From Candidatus Altimarinota bacterium (GTDB lineage: Bacteria > Patescibacteriota > Gracilibacteria > BD1-5 > UBA6164), in NCBI GenBank assembly GCA_027066455.1, contig JAMONT010000083.1:4052-68051 (forward strand): 64,000 nt of DNA, in the 5' to 3' direction. The position numbers were made by a program, and so were the translations under genes. This document shows, piece after piece, positions 1 to 56,856 of this stretch. Each line of letters starts with the position of its first letter. The stretch's first letter is position 1. The notes beneath the pieces are model-generated. The model had not been told where the DNA came from. It ran no database searches and was given only the letters and a program-made list of their open reading frames with translations.

Positions 1-801
1 TATACTCTTTTGAATCCGGGGGAATATTTGGAAAAAAATCTTTGGGAAAAGTTGGATTCTTGTATTTTGACAAGTGCAACTTTGAAAATATGAAACAATT
101 TTGATTATATAAAAAATATTTTGCATTTAGACAGTTTTGAATTTGAAACTTTTGAGTCAGATTTTGATTATTCAAAACAGGCACTTTTGTTTATTCCAAA
201 TGATTTGTGAGATATTAGAACAAATTTAGATGTTTTAAAAGAATTTTTGTTAAAATTTTTTATAATTGTAAAATGAAAAACACTTGTTTTAACAACAGCT
301 TTTGCAACAATTAGGGAACTTTATGTTTATTCTAACAAAGATTTGAAAGCAAAAAAGATTTCACTTTATGCTCAAGGTTTTTGAGGAAGTAAGCATAAAC
401 TTTTAGAATTTTTTAAGCAAGATTCTAAAAATTCAATTTTAATTTGAACAGATACTTTTTGGGAATGAATAGATATTGCTTGAGAAGATTTGAGTTATTT
501 AATTATTCACAAATTTCCATTTATAGTTCCAAATGATCCAATTTTTATGGCAAGAAGTTCACTTTTCAAAGATGCTTTCAGAGATTATTCTATTCCAAAA
601 ACTATTCTAAAATTAAAGCAAGGTTTTGGAAGATTAATCAGAACAAAAGAGGACAAATGAGTTGCAATTTTACTTGATAATAGAATTATTACAACTGCTT
701 GGTGAGAAGTTTTTTTTGAAGCTTTTCCTGAAAATATTAATATAAAAGTTGGAAGTAGTGAGGATTTTTTGAAAATTATGGAGAAAAAGGTGGGAAAATA
801 A
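1..801 (+). CDS. DinG/Rad3-family ATP-dependent DNA helicase, C-terminal part (5' end outside window)
   Basis: Frame 1 is open from nt 1 to TAA 799-801 with TGA=Gly. Translation ...LTSATLKIGNNFDYIKNIL...ILIGTDTFWEGIDIAGEDLSYLIIHKFPF...LKQGFGRLIRTKEDKGVAILLDNR resembles the C-terminal helicase motifs of DinG-like proteins. Confidence 0.7.
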
Positions 802-826
802 AAACTCTAGTTTTCTAGAGTTTTTG
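802..826 (+). terminator. Rho-independent terminator-like hairpin
   Basis: AAACTCTAG-TTTT-CTAGAGTTT followed by a T run, directly after the helicase stop and between convergent genes. Confidence 0.55.
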
Positions 827-887
827 TTTATAAAGTTTTAGGATTTTTTTCATTTTTTAATAGGTGTTTAGTTTTTTTATAAAAAAT

Positions 888-2777
888 TTAACTTTTCCAT
901 TTATCAACTAATGTTATAGTTTCACTATTAGGTCTATTTTCTTTATTTTCTATTTCTCAAACTTTCATAACTATTGGAATTTGTGCAATTAATCAAGCTA
1001 ATATACAAGTTCAAGTTGCTAAATTAGGAATTGAATCTGCTGAAATTTTATCTAAATATGCAATTGTTTTTTCAACAGCCATTAAATCATTATTATTTAT
1101 CAACCTATGTAAAAAATAATTATGTAATTGTGAAATAATTGTAGAAGAGATATCTGATGGTCTTTGACTTGCAATAGTTAAAAATGTTCAAAATTTTCTT
1201 CCTTCTTTTATTATTTCTTCAAAAACCTCTAATCTATAATCTTTCCATTGTTCACTTTCTCTATCTGAATTTCTTGATAAAATATTATGTGCTTCATCAA
1301 TTATTATATGTAAAGATTTATTTTTATCAGTATTTTTTTTCTTTTCATCATATAATTCTTTTACTAAAAGCATTGGTATCATCTTTCTAATATCTAAGTT
1401 TACATTTCTTAATGAAATTATTGTAAAATTAGAATCAAATCTATCTGAATCATTTTTTAATCTAATTACTTTTTCTAAATCCAAAATTCTTTTTTCTAAT
1501 CTTTTTATTAAAGGTGATAAATGTTCTTTATTTGAAAAACCTCTAATCATTTCATCATAATATTTAATTATTATTACTAATCATATTTTTCTTATACTAT
1601 CTAATCTTGAAATGCAATTTATATCAAATAATCATATTTTTTCCTCAATTTTTATTTTAAATCAAGTTGGATTTTCATTAGCAAATATTCAATCTAATTG
1701 AAAAGAAAATCTTTCTGTTCATCAAACTAACTTATCTCTAAAATATTGAGCAACATTTCTTATACTACTTTCTCACATGAAATTTGCTAATTCATATAAA
1801 AAATCTTCTGTAATTGTTTTATCTACTGCTCCTCCACTTACAGATGTAGCATTAATTATTTTTTCAACTATTAATTGTTTAAATGTAGTAATATTATTCA
1901 ATTTTTCTTCTATAAAAGTATCTTTAATTGCTCTATTTAAAAAAGGCATTTGAGTTTTTTCAGTTGCTTCAAGAAAAATTGACCAAAAAGTAGTATTTTT
2001 AAGAGTTTTTTTATTTATAGGAAATTTATCATCTTCACCTATACCTTCTATTTGTTTATTAGTAGTTAATTCAAAAATATTTTTATATTTTTTTCAATTA
2101 ATTTTTTTTTTGATAATAGCATCTCAAATATATTCTCAATTAAAATCTATAAGACAAAATTTTGCTCTTTCTTGAAAATTTAGATTATCTTTATATTTTT
2201 CAAAAAGTTCTTTATAAATTTTTGCTAAAGTATAAGATTTTCAACTTCAAGTATTTCAAAAAATTCAAACATGACTAGCAAATAATTTATTTACTCATAA
2301 TAAAATATCTTGTCAATCATCATACTCTAATTTTCAAATTTTTATTGGTTCATCCTTATTATCAAGAAAATCATGAATTTTTTCAAATTCTTCTCTAGTT
2401 AATAAATAACAAGTATTATCAATTAATGGTAATTCTTTTATTCATCTTTTAAATTTATCTCACTCAAAAAATCATAAAATTTTTATATTTAAAATTCTAT
2501 ATATTTTTTCTTTATTACTTGAATATTCAGTGTTTTCTTTACTTTCTTTTATAGTTTCTCATTCAATCTTTCAAATCATTACTTCAAATCATTTTTTTAT
2601 TTTTATATAACCTCAAACAGAGATATTTTGAATAATATCTCATTTATATAAAATTGAAGAAGTATTTTTTCAAGTATCAACCTTAACTCTTACAGATTGT
2701 CAAATTATTTCAATAACATCTCATATTTTAAATATTGAATTATCAACTATGTGATTTTCTGTTAATTTATTCATCAT
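888..2777 (-). CDS. herA: HerA-type (DUF87) ATPase, partner of SIR2 in a SIR2-HerA defence operon
   Basis: 630-codon ORF once the many in-frame TGA are read as Gly; in frame with track ORF 1188-1550. Walker A is HVGIFGNTGSGKSYTLA (2235-2267) and Walker B is LHIIIDEAHNIL. The N-terminal part is barrel-like (GDVIEIIGQSVRVKV...). The start ATG overlaps the SIR2 stop by 11 nt. Confidence 0.8.
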
Positions 2778-3855
2778 TTTGGTTATTGTTATTATTTATT
2801 TTTTTTTGTTCATTATATGGAACTATTTTTTCAAAAACTTCTTCTGTTATTGTTTTAAAATTATATCTTTGTTCTCATTCTGGATAAACTATTTCTATAT
2901 TTTTATTTTTTGCTTCTTCTTCCATTTTTACTAATAATTTATCATTAAGACTTTGTTGTCCTACTTCCTTTTTAGGAGAATATTTAAAAATATAAATTTT
3001 TAATGTAGGATTAGAATTAGTAACTCTTAATGTTAAATTTCTAATATGTTCATCTGCAAAAGAAAATCACATTACAAAAAGTAAACTATTTTCTTTTTCT
3101 AATTCATTTGAATAATATCTTAATAAATCATAATAATGCTGATTTAAAACAGTATCTTCAAACTTAGTTTTTTTAGGATTAACTATTGTAAGCTTATCAT
3201 ATCTTTCAACTTCAAAATCTCAATTATCAATTTCTTTTACTAATTCTAAATTTCTATCAAAATAAATTTTCGTATTTTCTGTATCTTGTTTCCAAGATAA
3301 AGAACCATGAATTTTTAAAATATTAAAAATTGGTATCTCTGAAGTATTTTCATAATGAAGACTTTTTTTATAAATTGATTTTTTAAAATTTCATACATCA
3401 AAAATTGGATTAATTTTTCAATGAAATCAATCATTATATTCTAATCAAGTTTCTTCTAATGCTTTTTCAGAAAAAATATCAATATTTGTAGTAAATACAT
3501 TTACTTGCTTTGTTAAAATTGTATTTTCTCTTTTTAAAAGAATATTATTTATTATTTTATAAAAATTTTTATAATATTTTAAAGTATTGTCTTTATTTTC
3601 ATTTTCTACTTCATCAATAATTTTAATATTTCAAACCATACATGTTTCAAAATATTGTTTTTTTAGTTCAATTATTCTAGCTTGTGTTTCATTTGTACTA
3701 TTTTCAGAGTCATTTTTTTCAGCCTCTGTTAAATCAATTTCAATTGTAGTTAATGTTCCTAAAAAATCACTTGATAAGCCTGAACCAAGTAAAAAATTAA
3801 TATTTCAACTATCAATTCATTTTTTTATATTTCTAATTAAATTTATTTTTTCCAT
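2767..3855 (-). CDS. SIR2-family (SIR2_2-like) NAD-dependent effector protein
   Basis: 363-codon ORF with TGA=Gly. Motifs are NFLLGSGLS (GAGxS-like NAD pocket), VFTTNID (TTNYD-like) and LKIHGSLSW (catalytic His). It is translationally coupled to herA. Confidence 0.8.
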
Positions 3856-3880
3856 ATTCTTTATTAAAAATTATTCTTTT

Positions 3881-3948
3881 CCACACTATACCTAAAACCA
3901 AAAAAAATCAAAATCTAATAACTAAAAAAAATCTAGAAAAATTTCTAG
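3881..3948. repeat. Direct repeat copy A (about 68 bp) containing the hairpin CTAGAAAAATTTCTAG
   Basis: ccacactatacctaaaaccaaaaaaaatcaaaatctaataactaaaaaaaatctagaaaaatttctag closely matches 4277-4344. Confidence 0.8.
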
Positions 3949-3969
3949 TCTTTATATAGTCTTATACTC

Positions 3970-4251
3970 TCAATTAGAAAATTTATGAATAATTGAAGCT
4001 AAATATGTTTGATAAGGAAGTCCTTCTTTTATAGCCATTGCTTTTATTTTCAAAATATCTTCTTGAAATAATCTAATATTCAAAGCTTTTTTTCTAGTTT
4101 TCTTTTCAATGGTATTTTTTGCTATAATTTTTGCTTCATTTTTAAATTGTTCTACTTTTTTTTCACTCATAGAATCATAATTTCAATTTTCAATACTTTT
4201 AAAAAAATCTAATTCATCTTTAGAATAAATTTCATTATCTTTTTTTACCAT
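3970..4251 (-). CDS. Ribbon-helix-helix (CopG/BrnA-like) antitoxin-like protein, no adjacent toxin
   Basis: Extends track ORF 3970-4170 upstream through one TGA to ATG at 4251. C-terminal KKALNIRLFQEDILKIKAMAIKEGLPYQTYLASIIHKF is typical of BrnA/CopG-type RHH antitoxins. Confidence 0.55.
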
Positions 4252-4276
4252 AATTTTTATATTAAAAAATATTTCT

Positions 4277-4344
4277 CCACATTATACTCACCACCAAAAA
4301 AAATCCAAATCTAATAACTAAAAAAAATCTAAAAATTTTTCTAG
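4277..4344. repeat. Direct repeat copy B (about 68 bp)
   Basis: ccacattatactcaccaccaaaaaaaatccaaatctaataactaaaaaaaatctaaaaatttttctag. With copy A it brackets the RHH gene. Confidence 0.8.
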
Positions 4345-4509
4345 ATTTTTTGTTTATAAAATTTTAAAATTTTTCTTTTTATTCATTTTCAATGTAAACT
4401 TTCATTAATCATTTACTTTATCTATAAATTCCTCATTTGAATTTATTTATATTTGATTTTTTATGTATTATATTGTATAATAAAAGTAATAATTATAAAA
4501 TAAAAAAAT

Positions 4510-5322
4510 ATGTTTAAAAAATTAACAAAAGTTGAATTAAGATATATTAGATATATTAAAGAAGTATATACACATTTTCCTGTCTATAAATTATTTCTTT
4601 TATCTATAATTTGATGAACAACTACTGCTCTTTGTATCTATTTTGATTATTCATATAATATGAGAATTGTTGTTTCATTTTTCTTTGTATGAATATTTTT
4701 TGTTTTTAGTATAGTTATGAGTTTAATAAGTGAAAGAAGGTTTAAAGCATATGATGAAATTGCCTTAATTAAAGCAAATTTAATTTCTACTTTACAAATT
4801 ATAAAAGTAAAAAAAATTCCTGAAGAAAAAAAGATATTTAAAAATATTTCTAAAATTATGTTTAGAATTCAAGAAAATCTTAGAAATGAAGATGAAGAAA
4901 AGAACTTTGAACTTATGAAAAAAATGGATGATAGTATTAGTTATTTATCTAATGTTGCTGAAATAATGTTAAAAAATTGAGTTTCTAGTTCTGAAACTTC
5001 AAGAATTCAGCAATTTCTAGCTCAAATAAATTTTTCAGTACAAAAATTGATTTATATAAAACAAAAAAGAACACCTAAATTATTAAAATTATTTTTATAC
5101 ACTTCACTTCCTGTTTCAGTAATAATTTTATCACCATGATTTGCAGAATTATGAGTTTTATGAATAATTTCATCAATGATAATTTCTTTTTTACTTTCAA
5201 TGTTACTTATAATTCAAAATAAAATAGAAAAGCCTTTTAGTTGAGAAATTGATGATATTAAACTTAGAAATATTGCAATGTTCACAAAAAGAATAAAAAA
5301 TATTTTTAAAAATAAATTTTAG
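4510..5322 (+). CDS. Hypothetical membrane protein (two N-terminal and two C-terminal hydrophobic helices)
   Basis: ATG 4510 to TAG 5320-5322, same frame as track ORF 4717-4980, read through TGA codons. No family recognised. Confidence 0.55.
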
Positions 5323-24069: not shown

Positions 24070-25731
24070 TTATTTCAATTTTACAGCCATTTTGAATATT
24101 GCAATTCAGAAAAACACTATAACTAAAGACAAAAGTATCATAAAAATATTTTTATTTGATTCAAAAAATCTATCATCTTTTTTATCACAAACATCTCAAA
24201 TTCAATCCAAATCAATATCACTTTGAAGAGGATTATAATCATAAGGACAATTATCATTTTTTGCTAAAATTTTATCTAAATCAGAATCTTCACAAGCATC
24301 TCAAATCCCATTATTATCCGAATCTTTTTGAAGAGGATTATAAATATTTATACAATTATCTTTTATTCAACTTATTCAATCAGAGTCAGAATCTTCACAA
24401 ATATCTCAAACTCAATTTTTATTTTCATCAAGTTGATCAGAATTTTGAATATTTTTACAATTATCACAAACATCTCAAATTCCATCTTTATCAAAATCCT
24501 CTTGCTTAGGATTAGCCATTTCTTCACAATTATCTTGAGAATTAATTATTTTATCTCAATCTTTGTCATTTTCTTTTAAAAATTTTTCTTTTTCCTCAGT
24601 AACATCTCCAATTCAATTATTATTTTTATCTAATTGTCTTGGATTATAATAAATTGAATTATCACATTTATTTCAAATATTATCCAAATCATCATCTTTT
24701 TGAAGAGGGTTAGCAATATTTATACAATTGTCTAATTGATCAAAAATTCAATCAGAATCCTTATCAAATTCACATTTATCTCATACTCAATTTCTGTTTA
24801 TATCTTCTTGCTTAGGATTATAAACATTTATACAATTATCTTTTTTTCAAATTATAGAGTCTCAATCATCATCACTACACAAATCTCCAATTCAATCAGC
24901 ATTTTTATCAAATTGTTTTGGGTTAGCTATTTTTGGACAATTATCTTCTGAATCAGGAATTTTATCTAGGTCAAAATCTTCTACTTTATTTGGATTAAAA
25001 TTTGGATTTTCTTTTAATTCTAAAAAAATAGTTTTTGTATTTTTATTTAAATTATATTCTCAATAATTATTTTTTAAATTTATATAATTATTTTTACAAA
25101 TATTTTTAGCATAAGCTTTTATTTCTCAAATAGTTTTTACTAAATAAATATAATTTTTTGAAATAAATTTTAGTTCAAAAATTTTAATTTTTTCAGGAGG
25201 AGTAATATGTTTTACTGTTGTATTAAAAGAAATTTTTAAAAATTTGAAATCATAAGTGTTTAATTTTTTTTCTGGAACAAAAAAATATTTTTCTCAATCT
25301 TTAGAAATTTCAATATGAGCATTTCTATAATTTGCTTTATATTCAAAATTAAAATCAAAACTTCAAGCTTTTAATATTTTATCAAATTCTAAAAATATAG
25401 AATTTTTATTTTTTTCCTCATCATAAATTAAAAAAGTTTTATAATTTTCATCACTCAAATATTCTAAATTTCAAAATAAATTTTTTATTTTAAAATCCAA
25501 AATTCATCAATAATTTTTATATAATTTATGAGGAATAATTTTATTATCAGAAATAAAAGTATCTATTTTTTTTGTAGAATTTATTTTTAAAGTTCATTTT
25601 TCTTGTTTTAGAATTCAAAAAAATTCATAACAATTTTCTTTAAAATTTTCAGGAATTTTTTTGAATTCTTGTGCAAAACTAGAATTTATAAATAAAAAAA
25701 ATATTGAAATTAGAACTATTAATTTTTTCAT
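24070..25731 (-). CDS. Secreted thrombospondin type-3 (calcium-binding) repeat protein with C-terminal TM anchor
   Basis: 554 codons. Signal peptide MKKLIVLISIFFLFINSSFA. About eight DNCxxxxNPxQxDxDxDGIGDxCD repeats. C-terminal IFMILLSLVIVFFGIAIF helix. Confidence 0.8.
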
Positions 25732-32637: not shown

Positions 32638-32787
32638 TTATGTATAGATTAAGAACACAAGCTCGTAAAAAAATACAAAGAGCATTAAGAACTATTGAAA
32701 AAAAAGTTAAAAAGAAACAAAGATAATTTTTCTTTTTTAACTGTATTAAAAAATTATTTAAATTTTATTTTTATTATTATATATATT

Positions 32788-33987
32788 ATGGCTTACGATA
32801 GAAGCAAACCACATATGAATATTGGTACTATTGGTCATGTTGATCATGGTAAAACTACTACTACTGCTGCAATTTCAGCTGTATTAAGTGCTAAATATAA
32901 TCCTGATGCAGTAATCAAAGATTTTGCTGCAATTGATAATGCTCCTGAAGAAAGAGCTAGAGGTATTACTATTAATACTTCTCATATTGAATATGAAACT
33001 GCTAATAGACACTATGCTCATGTTGATTGTCCAGGACATGCTGATTATGTTAAAAACATGATTACAGGTGCTGCACAAATGGATGCTGCAATATTAATTG
33101 TTGCTGCAACTGATGGTCCTATGGCACAAACTAGAGAACATATTTTATTATCTAGACAAGTATGAGTTCCTTATATTGTTGTTTATATGAATAAATGTGA
33201 TATGGTTGATGATGAAGAAATGATTGAATTAGTTGAAATGGAAATTAGAGATTTATTAACTAAATATGAATTTCCTGGTGATGATACTCCAGTTATTAAA
33301 GGTTCAGGTTTAGTTGCTCTTGAAAATCCTACTGATATGGATAAAGAATATGGAGCAAAAACTATTATAGAATTATTTGAAGCTATAGAAGAATTTGTTC
33401 CTGTTCCTGATAGACCTACTGATAAAGATTTTCTAATGCCTATTGAAGATGTATTTTCAATTAAAGGTAGAGGTACTGTTGTTACAGGTAAAATTGAAAC
33501 TTGAATTATTAAAGTTGGTGAAGAAGTTGAAATTGTTGGTATAAAAGAAACTACAAAAACTACTGTTACTGGAGTTGAAATGTTCCACAAATTATTAGAT
33601 GAAGGACAAGCTTGAGATAATGCTGGTTTACTAATAAGAGGTGTAGAAAGAGAAGATGTTGAAAGAGGTCAAGTTCTTGCTAAACCTGGAACAATCAAAC
33701 CACATACTGATTTTGAAGCTACTGTATATATACTTTCTAAAGATGAAGGTGGTAGACATACTCCATTTTTCAAAGGTTATAAACCTCAATTTTACTTCAG
33801 AACTACTGATGTAACTGGTGATATTGAATTACCAGAAGGAGTTGAAATGGTTATGCCTGGTGATAATATTGATTTCAAAGTTAAATTACAACAAGCTATT
33901 GCAATGACTGATGGTCTAAAATTTGCAATAAGAGAAGGTGGTAGAACTGTTGGTTCATGAGTTGTTTCTAAAATTATTACTGTATAA
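32788..33987 (+). CDS. tuf: Elongation factor Tu
   Basis: [24 protein letters not shown]...DCPGHADY...NKCDM. In-frame TGA at 33163-33165 (LLSRQV-G-VPYIVV), at 33502-33504 (GKIET-G-IIKVGEE), and at two further conserved Gly positions (GQA-G-DNAG, VGS-G-VVSK). Confidence 0.97.
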
Positions 33988-48414: not shown

Positions 48415-48448
48415 TAAAAAAATCTAGAAAAATTTCTAGATTTTTTTA
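48415..48448. terminator. Terminator-like hairpin (recurring module)
   Basis: aaaaaaATCTAGAAAaATTTCTAGATttttttt. The same hairpin core recurs at 3931-3948 and 4328-4347. Confidence 0.55.
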
Positions 48449-52644: not shown

Positions 52645-55600
52645 ATGACTAAAAAGAAATTTAAACAAGCTTTCACATTAATAGAATTAATTGTAGTTAT
52701 TGTAATTTTAGCTATTTTATGAACTATTGCTTATATTTATATGAGTAATTATAGTACTGACTCAAGAGATACAGTTAGAATTACTGATTTAAAAAACATT
52801 CAAAAAACACTAGATATTTATTTTGCTAAAGAATCACAATATCCAGAACCAAGTGATACAATTAATATCACTTATAGTTGAGCAACTGTATGGCTTCAAT
52901 GAGTTTTTTGAAATAAAACAAGAAAAGATTTATGAATTATATCAACAATTCCTTTAGATCCTATAACTAGAAATCCTTATTCATACTCAATAACAAATCA
53001 AAAAATGGAGTATCAGCTGTGAGCTGCATTAGAGTGAGATAATCCAGCAAAATCAGATTTAGAATGAATGCTAATAAATAAAGTTTATGCTTCACAAGAA
53101 ACATTAAATACATATATTATTTGAAATTATAATTGAAAAATAGTAAAATTCTCAACTTGATGATTAGACTATATTATCACAACACCAACAATTATAGCCT
53201 CTGATTTATCTAATACTGATATTTTAGATGTTATTGAAAATAAAAAATTATCTTTTAATACTTTTTCAAATCTACCAAATTCATATTCTTGAGTAATATT
53301 AGATAATAATAATTTTGATTTTAGTTGATGAGATAATATTGTTTTTAAATGAAGCTTTGAAAAATTATATTCAAGCAAAAATGAAAAAATGAAATTATAT
53401 GAAAAAATTGCAAAAAGATACAATTTTTCTTTTTTAGAATGAAAATGAAAATATAAAATTTTTTCTGATACTTATTCTGATTCTTTAAATCCTACTACAC
53501 AATATATTGACCATACTTGTCTAATAATATGAGATTTGATAAAAGATAATAATAATAGAAAATGTTTAGAAAACAAAGATGATATATTAAAATGAGAAGC
53601 TTATACTTGAGTGTTACTTCCAAACTGAGAAACAAATTATGTATGACAATGGCCTCTTTGAGATGTTTATAATTATTGACAATGAATTCAAACTGCTAAT
53701 CATGATAGATCTAATTTATGATTAAAATGATGATTAAATAAAACAATTTGAGTAAAATGGAAATTATTTACAAAAAACAAAAATGCAACAAATTATTTTT
53801 GATGAGAAGATATTAATTGAGACTCTAAAGAAAATATGCTTTATTGATTTTGATGAAAACTTATTTTATGAGATACTACTAATTGAAAAATAGTATGGCA
53901 AACTAAAGTTTTATGAATAAAAAAAGTTTTATGAATAGAAGATATAATGTGAGATTGAAGTAAATCTATAATAGTAGCTTTATGAGAAGATTGGTGGATA
54001 TGAGTTATTAATTGAAAAACTTGAGAATTAGATTGGATATCAAATAAAGTTTCTTGAACTGAAAAAAAAGTAAAAGTATGATGGCCATGACTTAATTATA
54101 AAACATTTGATATAAACTGAGATTGAATTAAAGAATATCATTTTAAACAATGGTACAAAAAATATCATTCAATGAAATTTTTTAAATCTTGAAATAAAGT
54201 AATATGAGAAACATTATGGTCTTCAGAATGATTTTGAAATTATAATGAAAATGTAACTGATTGATATCAACCTTATGTTTGGTCAATGTGAAAAATAAAT
54301 AATAAGTTAGTAATTTGAGCTAAATGAGCAAATCAATTTAGTTTTTATTCAAATGATGTAGATTCTAGCTTACCTCTACCAAATAAATTTAAAATGCCAG
54401 CATTTGCTAAATTAAATAATTGATGAAATACTTATAATTGACGGAGTAGAAGTATATGATATTTTTATGATATAAATTGAGATTGAAATGATGAATATAT
54501 AGCAAGAATTGATAAAGAATTAAATAATAATAAAAAATCAAGAATAATTGTCTCTTGACTTGATCCTTTAGATTCTAAAATGAAACAATTTATGTCTCTT
54601 TCTTCTTTTAATAATTCAGCTATAAACTATCATAAACCAATAGTTTTAAAAAATAATTCTAGCCCTGAAAATTCATACATTTTGACCTACTGAGAAGACC
54701 CTGTAACAAAAGCTAATAAATGGATGTTATTAAAGTACAATTGACAAAATAGTTTTAGTTATAAAAAAGATTCAGCTGAAAATGAATCATTTAATTATAA
54801 AATAGAATATGATAAATTTGACTCTAATTATAGTCCTGTTTGAATTTATAATAATTGAACTAAAGATTATATAGTTTTAAGAAAATGAACTTATTATTAC
54901 TTTTATACTTTTAATTGAGTTGATACATTCAAAGCCCCATTAACTGAAAGTTCTTTAAAAATTTCTTGAAGTTTTTTTGGAAACACTCTTTTTGATAATG
55001 GTTATGATGAAAATAGAGAAAAAGGGAAAGATTCTTGAATATTTTTAGCTTCTTATGATACAAATTGAAATTGAAAAAAAGAATTTGTAGTTTCAGAATG
55101 ATGATGATTTAAACTATATGAAGTAGAAGACTCTTGAACAACTTTAATAAAAACTTTTAATTGATATGGTAGTGTCCCTAGTAGACAAAAATATTGATTA
55201 ACTAAGGATAATAAGGATATGTATATTATTTCTTATAATTCCTCAAAAAATACTGTAAATTATTATAGAACAGATTTTGATAATTGAATTACTAATTTTA
55301 TTAAAAAAACAAATGATACACTTTATTCTTGAGGTGAAACTAATGATATGATTATTTCAAAATTATGACAAGGAAATAATAAATATAATAGATTAATGAT
55401 AAAATCTACTTGAATGTTTGATGCCAGAAATGCAACTCCTATTAATTCCCCAACAAAAATATCAAATGAATTTTTTTATTCATATGATATGAATAGAGAT
55501 GGAGAAAATGAAATTTTTCAAAACTGAAAAGCTTATACTTATAATTGACCTTGAAATTATACATTAAAATATAACTGAGAATGATGGCAATGAGATATAG

Positions 55601-56856
55601 ATTGAGACTGAATTTTAGATAATAGTTGGTCTTATTGTTCTGCTAGTGCAAATTTTTCTAGAAATTTATTTTACACAATAAGAAGTTGAAAAGATAATAG
55701 TGAAATAATTCCTAAATTAGATTGGGGAAATTGAAATTGATGGTGTGCATGATGAGATAAATATTCAGCTGTTTCAGAAGACTTTGATTCTGATTGAAAA
55801 GATGATTTTGTAATTTGAACTCAAGCAAGAGCACATAGAATATTATCTTTAAGTTGAAGTATAGCAAGTTGATTTTCAATAAATGAATGAAATCAAGCTA
55901 TTAGAAATGCTAGTAAACTTTTATCAGCCTTTGATTTTGATTGAGATTGAAAAAAAGAAATTTTAAGAGGTTATGATGATGATTTAAAAATATGGAAAAT
56001 TGATGAAAATGATAAAACAAAGCTAAATTTATTATTTGAAATAACTACAAAACAAATTAAAAAAACTCATCGGCAAGATATATGAATTCCTTCTTTATAT
56101 AAAGATGAAGACACTTGAAAAGTATATATTGCTATTAGATGAATAGATTGAGAAATTGCTTTGTATACTTGGGAAAAAGATGAATGATTAAAATATTTAT
56201 GGAAAAATTATTATATATATGCAAAAAAATATAGTTCTGATATATCTGCATTAAACAATAATTTAATTCCTATAGCAACAGCTGATGTTTTATTATGAGA
56301 TTTTATGAATGAATGAAAACCACAAGTATTGGTATGATCATGAGATTGATATGTTTATTTAATATGAATCAATTGAGATATTAAAAGATGATTTTATATA
56401 TGAAGTTCTATAAAAAGAATGATAATATGAGATACAAATGAAGATTTGTTATTAGATATTTTAGTTTGAGCTGAAGATTGATATGTTTATCAAATTTCTA
56501 GTTCTAGACTTGATCCTCCTGCATTAGTTAAAGATTGATTAAGTTGAGATTATAACAAACAAACAGAAGAACAAAAAAGTGCAGTTAATTTTAAAAAGGT
56601 AAAAGAAGCAAATTGATATTATGTGCAATTGTATAATTATACTAAAAAACAAGCTGTATTTGATTTTGTAAATATTTGAAATAAAACAAGTACTTGTGTT
56701 GTATCAAATAATTATTCTTGAAATATTTGAAATTGTATAAAAGTTAACAAAAATTTTAGTTTAGAAAAAAATGTTATATATGTTTGGAGAGTTCAAGCAT
56801 ATAACAATGAAATGTCTTCTCCTGAAGCTATTTCTGATTGATTTTATATTGAATAA
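52645..56856 (+). CDS. Giant pilin-headed protein: prepilin-type N-terminal methylation/cleavage motif fused to FG-GAP-like repeats
   Basis: 1404 codons. MTKKKFKQAFTLIELIVVIVILAIL... Repeated DINGDG, DTNGNGKKE, DIDGDGILD, DFDSDGKDD and DFDGDGKKE calcium-loop motifs. Well over 100 TGA-Gly codons, so the track has no + strand ORF anywhere in this 4.2 kb. Confidence 0.75.

What the first reader, a model, noticed from the sequence alone, without database searches (positions are those of the whole stretch)
888..3855. Complete SIR2-HerA anti-phage operon in a recoded CPR genome
A 363-codon SIR2-family gene carries the GAGxS-like, TTNYD-like and KIHGS catalytic-His motifs. Its stop overlaps by 11 nt the start of a 630-codon HerA/DUF87 ATPase with Walker A/B motifs and a barrel-like N-terminus. 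This two-gene architecture is the published SIR2-HerA (Nezha-type) NAD-depleting abortive-infection system. Neither gene appears as such in the standard-code track. It is flanked by a convergent helicase gene and by an orphan antitoxin-like gene bracketed by repeats, which gives an island-like context. Defence systems in UGA-recoded episymbiotic bacteria are little explored, and recoding itself is thought to interact with phage infection.
Basis: partly seen in the sequence, partly recalled or inferred. Interest (0 to 1): 0.7.

Follow-up and report, generated by a model that had tools for sequence, protein, structure and literature searches.

The report
SIR2-HerA phage-defence pair in Gracilibacteria
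Two overlapping genes in a bacterium that reads the stop codon TGA as glycine encode an intact copy of the known SIR2-HerA anti-phage system. It is a real but ordinary new member of that family, invisible unless the right genetic code is used.

Summary
Read with TGA = Gly (code 25), the minus strand holds a 362-aa SIR2 gene (2767-3855) whose end overlaps by 11 nt a 629-aa HerA gene (888-2777). Under the standard code only fragments of 120 aa or less appear.

- **Profiles:** both proteins match PADLOC's SIR2-HerA models over their full length (8e-62 and 6e-171).
- **Solved structures:** the best sequence match and the best fold match for each protein are the two chains of the S. aureus SIR2-HerA complex, 8YHX.
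- **Active sites:** the SIR2 catalytic Asn/Asp/His (N124, D126, H183) and the HerA Walker A and B motifs are present and invariant across homologues.
- **Gene pairing:** a SIR2 gene sits directly upstream of all 37 full-length HerA relatives found in reference genomes.
- **Host:** a Gracilibacteria chromosome with 21% GC. The pair's composition and TGA usage match the rest of the window, so it is long resident and not a recent island.

The "antitoxin-like" label for the neighbouring 99-aa gene is only weakly supported. The repeats bracketing that gene are real: they are duplicated terminator-plus-5'-region modules.

Verdict: a new member of a known system, in a divergent short-SIR2 subfamily with no experimentally tested close relative that I could identify. 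NAD+ depletion and phage protection are inferred, not shown.

The parts
2767..3855 (-). SIR2-family NADase gene of the HerA-associated type. It is 362 aa under code 25 and contains 10 in-frame TGA (Gly) codons.
   Evidence: ORF under code 25. PADLOC SIR2 PDLC04080 at 8.2e-62, covering residues 11-337 of 362. Pfam SIR2_2 at 3.9e-12. PDB SaSir2 8yhx_G at 7.9e-16, with N226/H287 aligned to N124/H183 (PMC11514289). The structure model matches SIR2 chains of SIR2-HerA complexes.
888..2777 (-). HerA-family ATPase gene. It is 629 aa under code 25 and contains 32 in-frame TGA (Gly) codons, four of them inside the Walker A loop.
   Evidence: PADLOC HerA PDLC04097 at 6.3e-171, covering residues 14-628. 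Pfam DUF87 at 6.8e-17. PDB SaHerA 8yho_A at 1.1e-34. Walker A 174-181, Walker B 491-497 and SQRPS 537-541 are invariant in homologues. The fold match is 8yhx_A at 1e-17.
2767..2777 (-). 11-nt overlap (ATGATGAATAA) between the SIR2 stop and the HerA start. Translational coupling is likely.
   Evidence: Read directly from the sequence. Recoded relatives keep an overlap of 11 or 8 nt (L003, L046, L047). An E. coli plasmid homologue overlaps by 4 nt.
800..830 (.). AT-rich perfect palindrome flanked by A and T runs. It looks like a bidirectional terminator between the convergent DinG-like gene and HerA.
   Evidence: Folds at -16.5 kcal/mol (+ strand, z = -6.6) and -11.6 kcal/mol (- strand, z = -4.2).
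3841..3953 (-). 5' region of SIR2, repeat copy A. It holds a weak hairpin plus T8, a conserved promoter-like stretch ending in TATAGT, the 5'UTR and the first 15 nt of the SIR2 coding sequence.
   Evidence: Direct repeat family D1, 113 nt at 79% identity. Alignment in gene orientation. The hairpin folds at only -5.8 kcal/mol, z = -0.8. The promoter assignment is an inference; the consensus scan was uninformative.
3952..4251 (-). 99-aa gene upstream of SIR2 on the same strand. It may be a ribbon-helix-helix (CopG/BrnA-like) DNA-binding protein. Whether it belongs to the system is uncertain.
   Evidence: Pfam CopG_antitoxin E = 0.0079 and BrnA_antitoxin E = 0.04, both below cut-off. No PADLOC, NCBIfam or PDB match. 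Not found next to SIR2-HerA in any other locus.
4237..4349 (-). Repeat copy B. It carries the same hairpin, promoter-like stretch and 5'UTR module, here upstream of the 99-aa gene.
   Evidence: The hairpin folds at -9.2 kcal/mol, z = -3.5.

Best explanation
This is an intact two-gene SIR2-HerA (Nezha-type) anti-phage system on the chromosome of a Gracilibacteria bacterium that translates TGA as glycine.

By analogy with characterised members, the likely mechanism is as follows. HerA forms a hexameric RecA-like ATPase ring. Its N-terminal beta-barrel domains dock a ring of SIR2 subunits. Assembly and a phage-derived trigger, with relief of inhibition by ATP, switch on the SIR2 NADase. The NADase cleaves NAD+ to ADP-ribose and nicotinamide, so the infected cell stops growing and the phage cannot replicate (abortive infection).

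The two genes are probably translated as a coupled pair from a promoter in the repeated 5' region.

**Shown here:** the gene structure, the genetic code, family and fold membership, conservation of catalytic and ATP-binding residues, and conserved gene pairing.

**Inferred from published homologues:** complex formation, NADase activity, the trigger, and phage protection.
For: - **Gene structure and code:** two intact ORFs under code 25 with an 11-nt overlap. TGA = Gly is shown by homologue alignment.
- **Profiles:** full-length PADLOC hits to SIR2 (8.2e-62) and HerA (6.3e-171) models. NCBIfam's best hits are SIR2_antiphage (2.4e-24) and HerA_antiphage (1.6e-39).
- **Solved structures:** the best PDB sequence match for both proteins is the same complex, S. 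aureus SIR2-HerA 8YHX/8YHO. Foldseek on the AlphaFold models returns SIR2-HerA complexes first for both.
- **SIR2 active site:** N124, D126 and H183 align with SaSir2 N226/H287 (H287 mutation abolishes NADase; PMC11514289) and with PsSIR2 N163/D165/H212 (PMC11472057). They are invariant in 62 homologues.
- **HerA ATPase site:** Walker A K180 and Walker B D494/E495 are invariant.
- **Gene pairing:** SIR2 lies directly upstream of HerA in 37 of 37 full-length reference-genome relatives and in the recoded relatives L003, L046 and L047.
- **Defence context of relatives:** they sit among other defence or toxin genes, including Zeta toxin, SMODS, methylase plus HNH, a type I RM S subunit and RhuM.
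- **Published mechanism:** PMC11514289, PMC11472057, PMC13434337.
Against: - There is no expression, biochemical or phage-challenge evidence for this locus or for any member of its subfamily that I could identify.
- Identity to the solved or tested systems is low, about 18-20% in structural alignments.
- The scores are far below NCBIfam's equivalog cut-offs: 86 against 500 bits and 136 against 800 bits.
- Published systems differ among themselves. SaHerA has no ATPase activity; SIR2 rings have 12 or 14 subunits; some systems use a nickase and others a helicase/nuclease. The details therefore cannot be transferred safely.
- The structure models had to be built on database versions carrying Trp at the TGA positions. 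The HerA model is only moderate (pLDDT 71), with low confidence in the N- and C-terminal parts.
Confidence: 0.88

Rival explanations
1. The pair is a housekeeping module: a sirtuin-type protein deacetylase plus a HerA/FtsK-like DNA translocase used for DNA repair or segregation, not for defence.
For: HerA-family ATPases also act in DNA end resection with NurA. NCBIfam's repair-type HerA models give weak hits, 2.8e-20 and 1.3e-19. The immediate neighbours are housekeeping genes.
Against: - Pfam finds SIR2_2 (PF13289), not the deacetylase SIR2 family.
- The protein has a single Cys, so it has no Zn-binding Cys4 module.
- No NurA gene is adjacent.
- Anti-phage HerA and SIR2 models score far better.
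- Both best structural matches are defence complexes.
- The pair is patchily distributed across unrelated phyla at 50-72% HerA identity. It also occurs on conjugative plasmids and predicted viral contigs, and as decayed remnants. This pattern is typical of mobile defence genes.
Confidence: 0.04
2. The locus is a three-gene unit. The upstream 99-aa ribbon-helix-helix-like protein would be a dedicated transcriptional regulator. It would bind the duplicated 5' regions and control both itself and SIR2-HerA.
For: - The 99-aa gene is on the same strand, 96 nt upstream of SIR2.
- Both genes are preceded by the same roughly 113-nt module, 79% identical with a 52-nt core at 92%. That module occurs nowhere else in the 64-kb window apart from its generic hairpin.
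- The hairpin between the 99-aa gene and SIR2 is weak, at -5.8 kcal/mol and z = -0.8, so read-through is plausible.
- There are weak CopG/BrnA (DNA-binding RHH) matches.
- Some relatives carry a small XRE-type HTH gene just upstream of SIR2: L046 with a Pfam HTH_3 hit, and L014 and L040 by inspection.
Against: - The RHH assignment is below every family cut-off.
- The 99-aa protein is not found beside SIR2-HerA in any of about 45 other loci.
- The genes upstream of SIR2 are heterogeneous across relatives.
- Characterised SIR2-HerA systems work as two genes.
Confidence: 0.15
3. The genes are intact in sequence but non-functional or silent: a relic on its way to decay, as seen in other genomes.
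For: C-terminal HerA remnants without SIR2 exist in another Gracilibacteria genome (L042) and in two other genomes. This shows that the system is lost recurrently. No expression data exist for this locus.
Against: - Both ORFs are full length with no frameshift.
- Every invariant family residue checked is retained.
- Codon usage is fully adapted to the host.
- The coupled overlap is conserved in relatives.
Confidence: 0.07

Closest known systems
Staphylococcus aureus SaSir2-HerA (PDB 8YHX/8YHO; PMC11514289)
   Same: It is the best PDB match for both proteins by sequence (7.9e-16 and 1.1e-34) and by fold. The catalytic N226/H287 correspond to N124/H183 here. The Walker A GNTGSGKS and the SQRPS motif are identical. 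The architecture is the same two-gene arrangement.
   Different: Identity is only about 18-20% in structural alignment. SaSir2 is 428 aa against 362 aa here. SaHerA was reported to lack ATPase activity. The SaSir2 beta4-beta5 hairpin and the helix-to-loop activation switch were not checked here.
E. coli Nezha / EcSIR2-HerA (PDB 8J4U, 8SU9, 8SUB, 8UAE)
   Same: A SIR2 plus HerA pair that forms a SIR2 dodecamer bound to a HerA hexamer. It acts by NAD+ depletion and abortive infection, with inhibition by ATP. The fold match has TM about 0.65-0.70. The FTTNxD and HGS motifs align.
   Different: The sequence match is more distant (6.7e-12 and 3.6e-19). EcSIR2 is 415 aa and has a C-terminal oligomerisation helix (PMC11514289). 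Whether the 362-aa protein has an equivalent helix is unknown.
Paenibacillus sp. 453MF PsSIR2-HerA (PDB 8W9L, 8WLD; PMC11472057)
   Same: The putative catalytic N163/D165/H212 align with N124/D126/H183. PsSIR2's N-terminal alpha-1 helix docks between HerA beta-barrels. The model here also has a confident N-terminal helix, residues 2-16.
   Different: PsHerA is 696 aa with a C-terminal arm domain. PsSIR2 forms a tetradecamer in the complex. The sequence matches are weak (5.4e-10 and 9.1e-24).
Unnamed short-SIR2/HerA subfamily (PADLOC PDLC04080 + PDLC04097), e.g. E. coli IncF plasmid pRHB04-C01_2 (CP058026.1), Rhodococcus and Pantoea plasmids, many Patescibacteria, Bacteroidota and Acidobacteriota genomes
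   Same: The protein lengths match (SIR2 about 340-365 aa, HerA about 600-645 aa) and the genes overlap or abut. Identity is 34% (SIR2) and 37% (HerA) to the E. coli plasmid pair, and 50-72% (HerA) to environmental relatives.
   Different: Those copies use the standard code. I could not establish whether any member of this subfamily has been tested. It may or may not be one of the E. coli types I-III of PMC13434337, because no accessions were available.
DUF4297-HerA defence systems (PDB 9C1M, 8XAU, 8ZIQ)
   Same: The HerA scaffold has a similar fold and sequence (1.3e-29).
   Different: The effector partner here is SIR2, not a DUF4297 nuclease.

Membership tests
SIR2-HerA (Nezha-type) anti-phage system | Adjacent, co-oriented SIR2-domain gene and HerA-family ATPase gene | tested here: met
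   2767..3855(-) and 888..2777(-), with an 11-nt overlap.
SIR2-HerA (Nezha-type) anti-phage system | The SIR2 protein matches SIR2-HerA-type SIR2 profiles over its full length | tested here: met
   PADLOC PDLC04080 at 8.2e-62, residues 11-337 against model positions 18-336 of 347. Pfam SIR2_2 at 3.9e-12, above its gathering score.
SIR2-HerA (Nezha-type) anti-phage system | SIR2 NADase catalytic residues (Asn, Asp and His of the FTTNxD and HGS motifs) and the Gly-rich NAD-binding loop | tested here: met
   N124, D126 and H183 align with SaSir2 N226/H287 and PsSIR2 N163/D165/H212 (PMC11514289, PMC11472057). G24, G26, S28, N124, D126 and H183 are invariant in 62 homologues.
SIR2-HerA (Nezha-type) anti-phage system | SIR2 fold closest to HerA-associated SIR2 proteins | tested here: met
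   The model has pLDDT 81 and pTM 0.84. Its top 39 Foldseek PDB matches are all SIR2 chains from SIR2-HerA entries (8YHX, 8SU9/8SUB/8UAE/8SXX/8J4U, 8WLD/8W9L), at E = 6e-14 to 3e-8. ThsA, KomC and DSR2 appear only at 1e-6 or weaker. Caveat: the model was built on the database version that has Trp at 10 Gly positions.
SIR2-HerA (Nezha-type) anti-phage system | HerA-family ATPase with Walker A and Walker B motifs | tested here: met
   PADLOC PDLC04097 at 6.3e-171, residues 14-628. GNTGSGKS 174-181 and IIIDEAH 491-497 are invariant.
SIR2-HerA (Nezha-type) anti-phage system | N-terminal beta-barrel domain of HerA, the SIR2 docking site | tested here: inconclusive
   The model shows an all-beta region at residues 16-110, but with pLDDT only 43-69. 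Profile and PDB alignments do cover the N-terminal region. A barrel topology was not verified.
SIR2-HerA (Nezha-type) anti-phage system | The SIR2-HerA pairing is conserved in relatives | tested here: met
   SIR2 lies directly upstream in 37 of 37 full-length HerA relatives from reference genomes. The 3 exceptions are C-terminal HerA remnants. The same holds in recoded relatives.
SIR2-HerA (Nezha-type) anti-phage system | Supramolecular SIR2-HerA complex, HerA-dependent NADase activity, and phage protection with NAD+ depletion | not testable with these tools
   This needs biochemistry and phage challenge of the recoded genes. No complex predictor was available.
NCBIfam equivalogs SIR2_antiphage (NF042942) and HerA_antiphage (NF042943/NF042944) | Score above the curated equivalog cut-off | tested here: not met
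   86 bits against a cut-off of 500, and 136 or 123 bits against cut-offs of 800 or 850. These are the best-scoring families, but the pair lies outside those narrow equivalog groups. This is why public records name its relatives only 'SIR2 family protein' and 'ATP-binding protein'.
Sirtuin protein deacetylases (CobB/Sir2, PF02146) | Match to the deacetylase SIR2 family and a Zn-binding Cys4 module | tested here: not met
   No PF02146 hit at E <= 1. The protein contains a single Cys.
HerA-NurA DNA end-resection machinery | An adjacent NurA nuclease partner and a repair-type HerA | tested here: not met
   No NurA gene in the flanks. NCBIfam helicase_HerA scores 72 bits against a cut-off of 970.
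Thoeris ThsA, DSR and other SIR2-effector systems | SIR2 fused to SLOG or a long C-terminal sensor, or paired with a TIR (ThsB) or Argonaute gene | tested here: not met
   The protein is 362 aa and consists of the SIR2 domain only. Its partner is HerA. ThsA and DSR2 match only the SIR2 domain at E = 1e-6 to 1e-4, and PADLOC Aga_SIR2 scores 1.4e-12 against 8e-62.
Genetic code 25 (TGA = Gly; Gracilibacteria/Absconditabacteria) | In-frame TGA codons at positions that are conserved Gly in standard-code homologues | tested here: met
   HerA: 22 of 32 TGA columns have a Gly majority and none has a Trp majority. SIR2: 4 of 10 columns are Gly and none is Trp. Every named close GlmS relative is listed as Candidatus Gracilibacteria.
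BrnA/CopG-type antitoxin (99-aa gene) | A significant match to the antitoxin family and an adjacent toxin gene | tested here: inconclusive
   E = 0.0079 and 0.04, below the gathering scores. There are no NCBIfam, PADLOC or PDB hits and no toxin ORF adjacent.

The most novel reading that the evidence does not exclude
The pair may belong to a SIR2-HerA sublineage confined to TGA-recoded bacteria and kept there for a long time. Three observations point this way:
- Its five nearest HerA relatives and nine nearest SIR2 relatives all come from recoded genomes.
- TGA encodes 82% of HerA's Gly codons, the same as the host average.
- Four of those TGA codons lie inside the Walker A loop, so the genes cannot function in a standard-code cell.

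This would make code 25 a one-way valve for defence genes: import is possible, export is not. It would also show NAD+-depletion suicide immunity operating in an obligate episymbiont. In this genome the system may additionally have gained a dedicated small RHH regulator acting through a duplicated promoter module.
Probability: 0.2. Interest if true: 0.45.

Novelty: new member of a known kind. Interest (0 to 1): 0.3.

Why it matters
The system itself is well known, so the biological novelty is modest. The value is mostly practical and ecological.

- **Hidden from surveys:** under the standard code the genes shatter into fragments of 120 aa or less. The public protein collection holds them translated with code 4, with Trp at every TGA. 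There the HerA has no Pfam hit on record and no name. Defence-system surveys that do not call genes with table 25 will therefore under-count immunity in Gracilibacteria and Absconditabacteria.
- **Abortive infection in a minimal cell:** a tiny-genome, host-dependent bacterium keeps an abortive-infection system whose codon usage is fully adapted to its own genome.
- **Literature:** I found no paper in the searchable library that links SIR2-HerA with CPR bacteria or Gracilibacteria.

Tried and rejected
- **Promoter and terminator scan.** It was uninformative at 21% GC: 31 promoter-like sites against 36.5 expected. It found no terminators because it demands at least 3 G-C pairs. I folded the AT-rich hairpins directly instead.
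- **Structure prediction with the true code-25 proteins.** I used the database versions P0122 and P0001, which carry Trp at the TGA positions. This probably lowered confidence, especially for HerA.
- **Finding the window's own genome in reference genomes.** It is not among the 40 loci returned. The organism name therefore rests on GlmS relatives.
- **Defining island boundaries by synteny.** The closest GlmS relatives (84% and 78% identical) have a different neighbourhood. No insertion boundaries could be defined.
- **Compositional test for recent transfer.** The result was negative.
- **Survey for a conserved small regulator upstream of SIR2 in about 40 loci.** The upstream genes are heterogeneous. 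Only 3 loci have small XRE-type HTH genes, and none has a homologue of the 99-aa protein.
- **Assigning the pair to E. coli Sir2-HerA types I-III (PMC13434337).** This was not possible: no accessions in the text and no supplements held.
- **Phage-genome search.** It gave only terminase-like partial hits. IMG/VR viral contigs hold only distant relatives at 30-40% identity.
- **Rejected readings.** TGA = Trp (code 4). A sirtuin deacetylase, HerA-NurA repair, Thoeris/DSR and DUF4297-HerA; see the membership rows.
Full report
**1. What is in the sequence**

The window has 21.4% GC. Under the standard code, the region 888-3855 contains only ORFs of 120 aa or less. Treating TGA as a sense codon gives two long minus-strand ORFs: 2767..3855 (362 aa, 10 TGA codons) and 888..2777 (629 aa, 32 TGA codons). 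They share 11 nt, ATGATGAATAA.

**2. Genetic code and organism**

I aligned both proteins with homologues taken from standard-code genomes.
- In HerA, Gly is the majority residue in 22 of the 32 TGA columns and Trp is the majority in none. In SIR2, 4 of 10 TGA columns are Gly and none is Trp.
- Genuine TGG codons align with Trp in 99 of 102 cells.
- Four TGA codons lie inside the HerA Walker A loop, G-I-F-G-N-T-G-S-G-K-S.

The code is therefore 25 (TGA = Gly), not 4.

The adjacent GlmS has close relatives, and every one that carries a name is listed as Candidatus Gracilibacteria. The window also carries tRNAs, EF-Tu, GlmS, an ABC-F protein and a DinG-like helicase. It is a piece of a Gracilibacteria chromosome.

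The public protein collection holds this contig (71,218 bp; also ENA ERZ27262665 and Logan SRR8439171). There its proteins are translated with Trp at every TGA and carry no name. In that form HerA has no Pfam hit on record, and its PADLOC score drops from 568 to 483 bits.

**3. Identity of the two proteins**

*SIR2*
- Pfam SIR2_2 scores 3.9e-12, above its gathering score.
- PADLOC SIR2 model PDLC04080 scores 8.2e-62 and covers residues 11-337.
- NCBIfam's best hit is SIR2_antiphage at 2.4e-24.
- Only three distinct PDB sequences match, and all are SIR2 subunits of SIR2-HerA systems: S. aureus 8YHX (7.9e-16), E. coli Nezha 8J4U/8SU9 (6.7e-12) and Paenibacillus 8W9L (5.4e-10).
- In those alignments, N124 and H183 fall on SaSir2 N226 and H287. 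The published work calls these the catalytic dyad, and a mutation at H287 abolished NADase activity (PMC11514289). N124, D126 and H183 also fall on PsSIR2 N163, D165 and H212 (PMC11472057).
- G24, G26, S28, F121, T122, N124, D126, H183, G184 and S185 are invariant in 62 homologues.
- An AlphaFold model has pLDDT 81.4 and pTM 0.84. Its top 39 PDB matches are all SIR2 chains from S. aureus, E. coli or Paenibacillus SIR2-HerA entries, with TM up to 0.70. ThsA, KomC and DSR2 follow five or more orders of magnitude behind.

*HerA*
- Pfam DUF87 scores 6.8e-17.
- PADLOC HerA model PDLC04097 scores 6.3e-171 and covers residues 14-628.
- NCBIfam HerA_antiphage scores 1.6e-39, ahead of the DNA-repair HerA model at 2.8e-20.
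- The best PDB match is SaHerA, 8YHO/8YHX, at 1.1e-34. That is the partner of the best SIR2 match.
- Walker A (174-181), Walker B (491-497) and the SQRPS motif (537-541) are invariant among homologues.
- The AlphaFold model is only moderate, with pLDDT 70.9. It shows a beta-rich N-terminal region (residues 16-110), a RecA-like core and a helical insertion. Its best fold match is again 8yhx_A, at 1e-17.

**4. Gene pairing in relatives**

A scan of one genome per species found 40 loci with a HerA relative.
- In all 37 loci with a full-length HerA, a SIR2 homologue (39-60% identical) lies immediately upstream on the same strand.
- The three exceptions (L041-L043) hold only C-terminal HerA remnants of 165-223 aa. 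They are decayed copies. One of them is in another Gracilibacteria genome.
- Close relatives from other recoded genomes keep the pair and the 8- or 11-nt overlap. They sit among defence or toxin genes: Zeta toxin, SMODS, methylase plus HNH in L003; a type I RM S subunit and RhuM in L046.
- Full-length relatives at 37-45% identity occur on 380 plasmid records, many of them conjugative. One is an E. coli IncF plasmid where the pair is annotated 'SIR2 family protein' and 'ATP-binding protein'.
- More distant relatives occur on predicted viral contigs.

This is the distribution of a mobile defence module, not of a housekeeping gene.

**5. Residence in this genome**

The pair is compositionally indistinguishable from the rest of the window. 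Its GC is 0.195-0.205 and its GC3 about 0.05. TGA makes up 67-82% of its Gly codons, against 74.5% (835 of 1121) elsewhere.

The nearest relatives are all Trp-rich, Gly-poor database entries, which marks them as recoded genomes read with code 4. This holds for the nine nearest SIR2 relatives. In a neighbour-joining tree, the window's HerA sits in a clade of five such sequences. That tree has no support values, and other Gracilibacteria HerAs (P0040, P0054) fall outside the clade.

The system has therefore been in code-25 lineages for a long time. I could not test it by synteny, because the neighbourhood of the closest relatives differs.

**6. Flanks and repeats**

Downstream, an AT-rich perfect palindrome at 800-830 folds strongly on both strands, at -16.5 and -11.6 kcal/mol. 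It separates HerA from the convergent DinG-like gene.

Upstream, the 99-aa gene (3952..4251, minus strand) is bracketed by two copies of a roughly 113-nt module, 79% identical with a 52-nt core at 92%. In gene orientation each copy contains four parts:
- a CTAGAAA..TTTCTAG hairpin plus T8;
- a conserved AGTTATTAGATTT(T/G)GATTTTTTTTGGT stretch;
- a TATA(G/A)T box;
- the 5'UTR and the first codons of the downstream gene.

The module is thus a duplicated terminator-promoter-leader unit placed in front of both the 99-aa gene and SIR2. Only its hairpin recurs elsewhere in the window, at 48416-48439. The hairpin between the 99-aa gene and SIR2 is weak (-5.8 kcal/mol, z = -0.8), so read-through into SIR2-HerA is possible.

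The 99-aa protein resembles CopG/BrnA ribbon-helix-helix proteins only weakly, at E = 0.008-0.04 and below the family cut-offs. It has no other database match, no adjacent toxin, and no homologue next to SIR2-HerA elsewhere. Calling it an orphan antitoxin is a guess. A role as a local regulator is an untested possibility.

**7. Mechanism (inferred from published systems)**

In the characterised systems, HerA forms a hexamer whose N-terminal beta-barrels engage a 12- or 14-subunit SIR2 ring. SIR2 alone is auto-inhibited, and complex formation activates the NADase. In some systems complex formation also activates ATPase, helicase and nuclease or nickase activities. ATP restrains these activities. 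Phage proteins such as single-stranded-DNA-binding proteins can act as triggers. NAD+ collapse then causes abortive infection (PMC11514289, PMC11472057, PMC13434337).

All sequence determinants that I could check for this scheme are present here. The assembly state, the trigger and the protective effect are not shown.

**8. Comparison and novelty**

The pair belongs to a short-SIR2 subfamily, with SIR2 of about 340-365 aa, matched by PADLOC models PDLC04080 and PDLC04097. This subfamily is very widespread and strongly conserved: HerA is 50-72% identical across Patescibacteria, Bacteroidota, Acidobacteriota, Pseudomonadota and cyanobacteria.

It is distant from the solved systems, at about 18-20% structural-alignment identity. 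It falls below NCBIfam's equivalog cut-offs. I could not find a tested member.

Gracilibacteria homologues are already in GenBank as 'ATP-binding protein' (MFA7277780.1, MBP7773840.1). No paper in the searchable library links SIR2-HerA with CPR bacteria or Gracilibacteria.

The finding is correct. It is a new member of a known kind. The useful side lesson is that the wrong genetic code hides such systems from surveys.

Noticed in passing
window 32695-33987 (+), EF-Tu: The EF-Tu gene uses TGA for only 4 of its 36 Gly codons, against 74.5% in the rest of the window. Its GC is also higher, at 30%. A highly expressed gene seems to avoid the reassigned codon.
   Followed up: partly
window 52645-56856 (+): A 1403-aa ORF starts with a type IV pilin-like N-terminus (KQAFTLIELIVVIVILAILG), judged by eye. 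It may be a giant pilin-like surface protein, which could matter for an episymbiont lifestyle.
   Followed up: no
window 24070-25731 (-): A 553-aa ORF has a signal-peptide-like start and many Asp-rich repeats resembling thrombospondin type 3 calcium-binding repeats (DxDxDGxGDxCD), judged by eye.
   Followed up: no
window 800-830, 3925-3950, 4320-4350, 48416-48439: The same AT-rich palindrome (CTAGAAA..TTTCTAG, flanked by A and T runs) recurs at gene ends. It is likely this genome's generic intrinsic-terminator shape. The standard terminator scan misses it because it has fewer than 3 G-C pairs.
   Followed up: partly
public records of this contig (P0001, P0122, P0242; L001, L002): The public protein collection stores this genome's proteins translated with code 4, with Trp instead of Gly at every TGA. 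HerA then has no Pfam domain on record and no name.
   Followed up: yes
L042 4860-5411 (Gracilibacteria McBI.71); L041; L043: Only C-terminal remnants of this HerA remain (ORFs of 165-223 aa), with no SIR2 beside them. These are decayed copies and show that the system is lost recurrently.
   Followed up: partly
L046 822-1085; L003 5890-15265: Recoded close relatives carry the pair inside clear defence neighbourhoods. L046 has an 87-aa HTH_3 gene 4 nt upstream of SIR2, with a type I RM S subunit and RhuM downstream. L003 has Zeta toxin, SMODS, and a DNA methylase plus HNH nearby.
   Followed up: partly
window 4510-5322 (+): A 270-aa predicted membrane protein lies divergent from the 99-aa gene. 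It has no significant family match; the best is Bestrophin_2 at E = 0.003, below cut-off.
   Followed up: no
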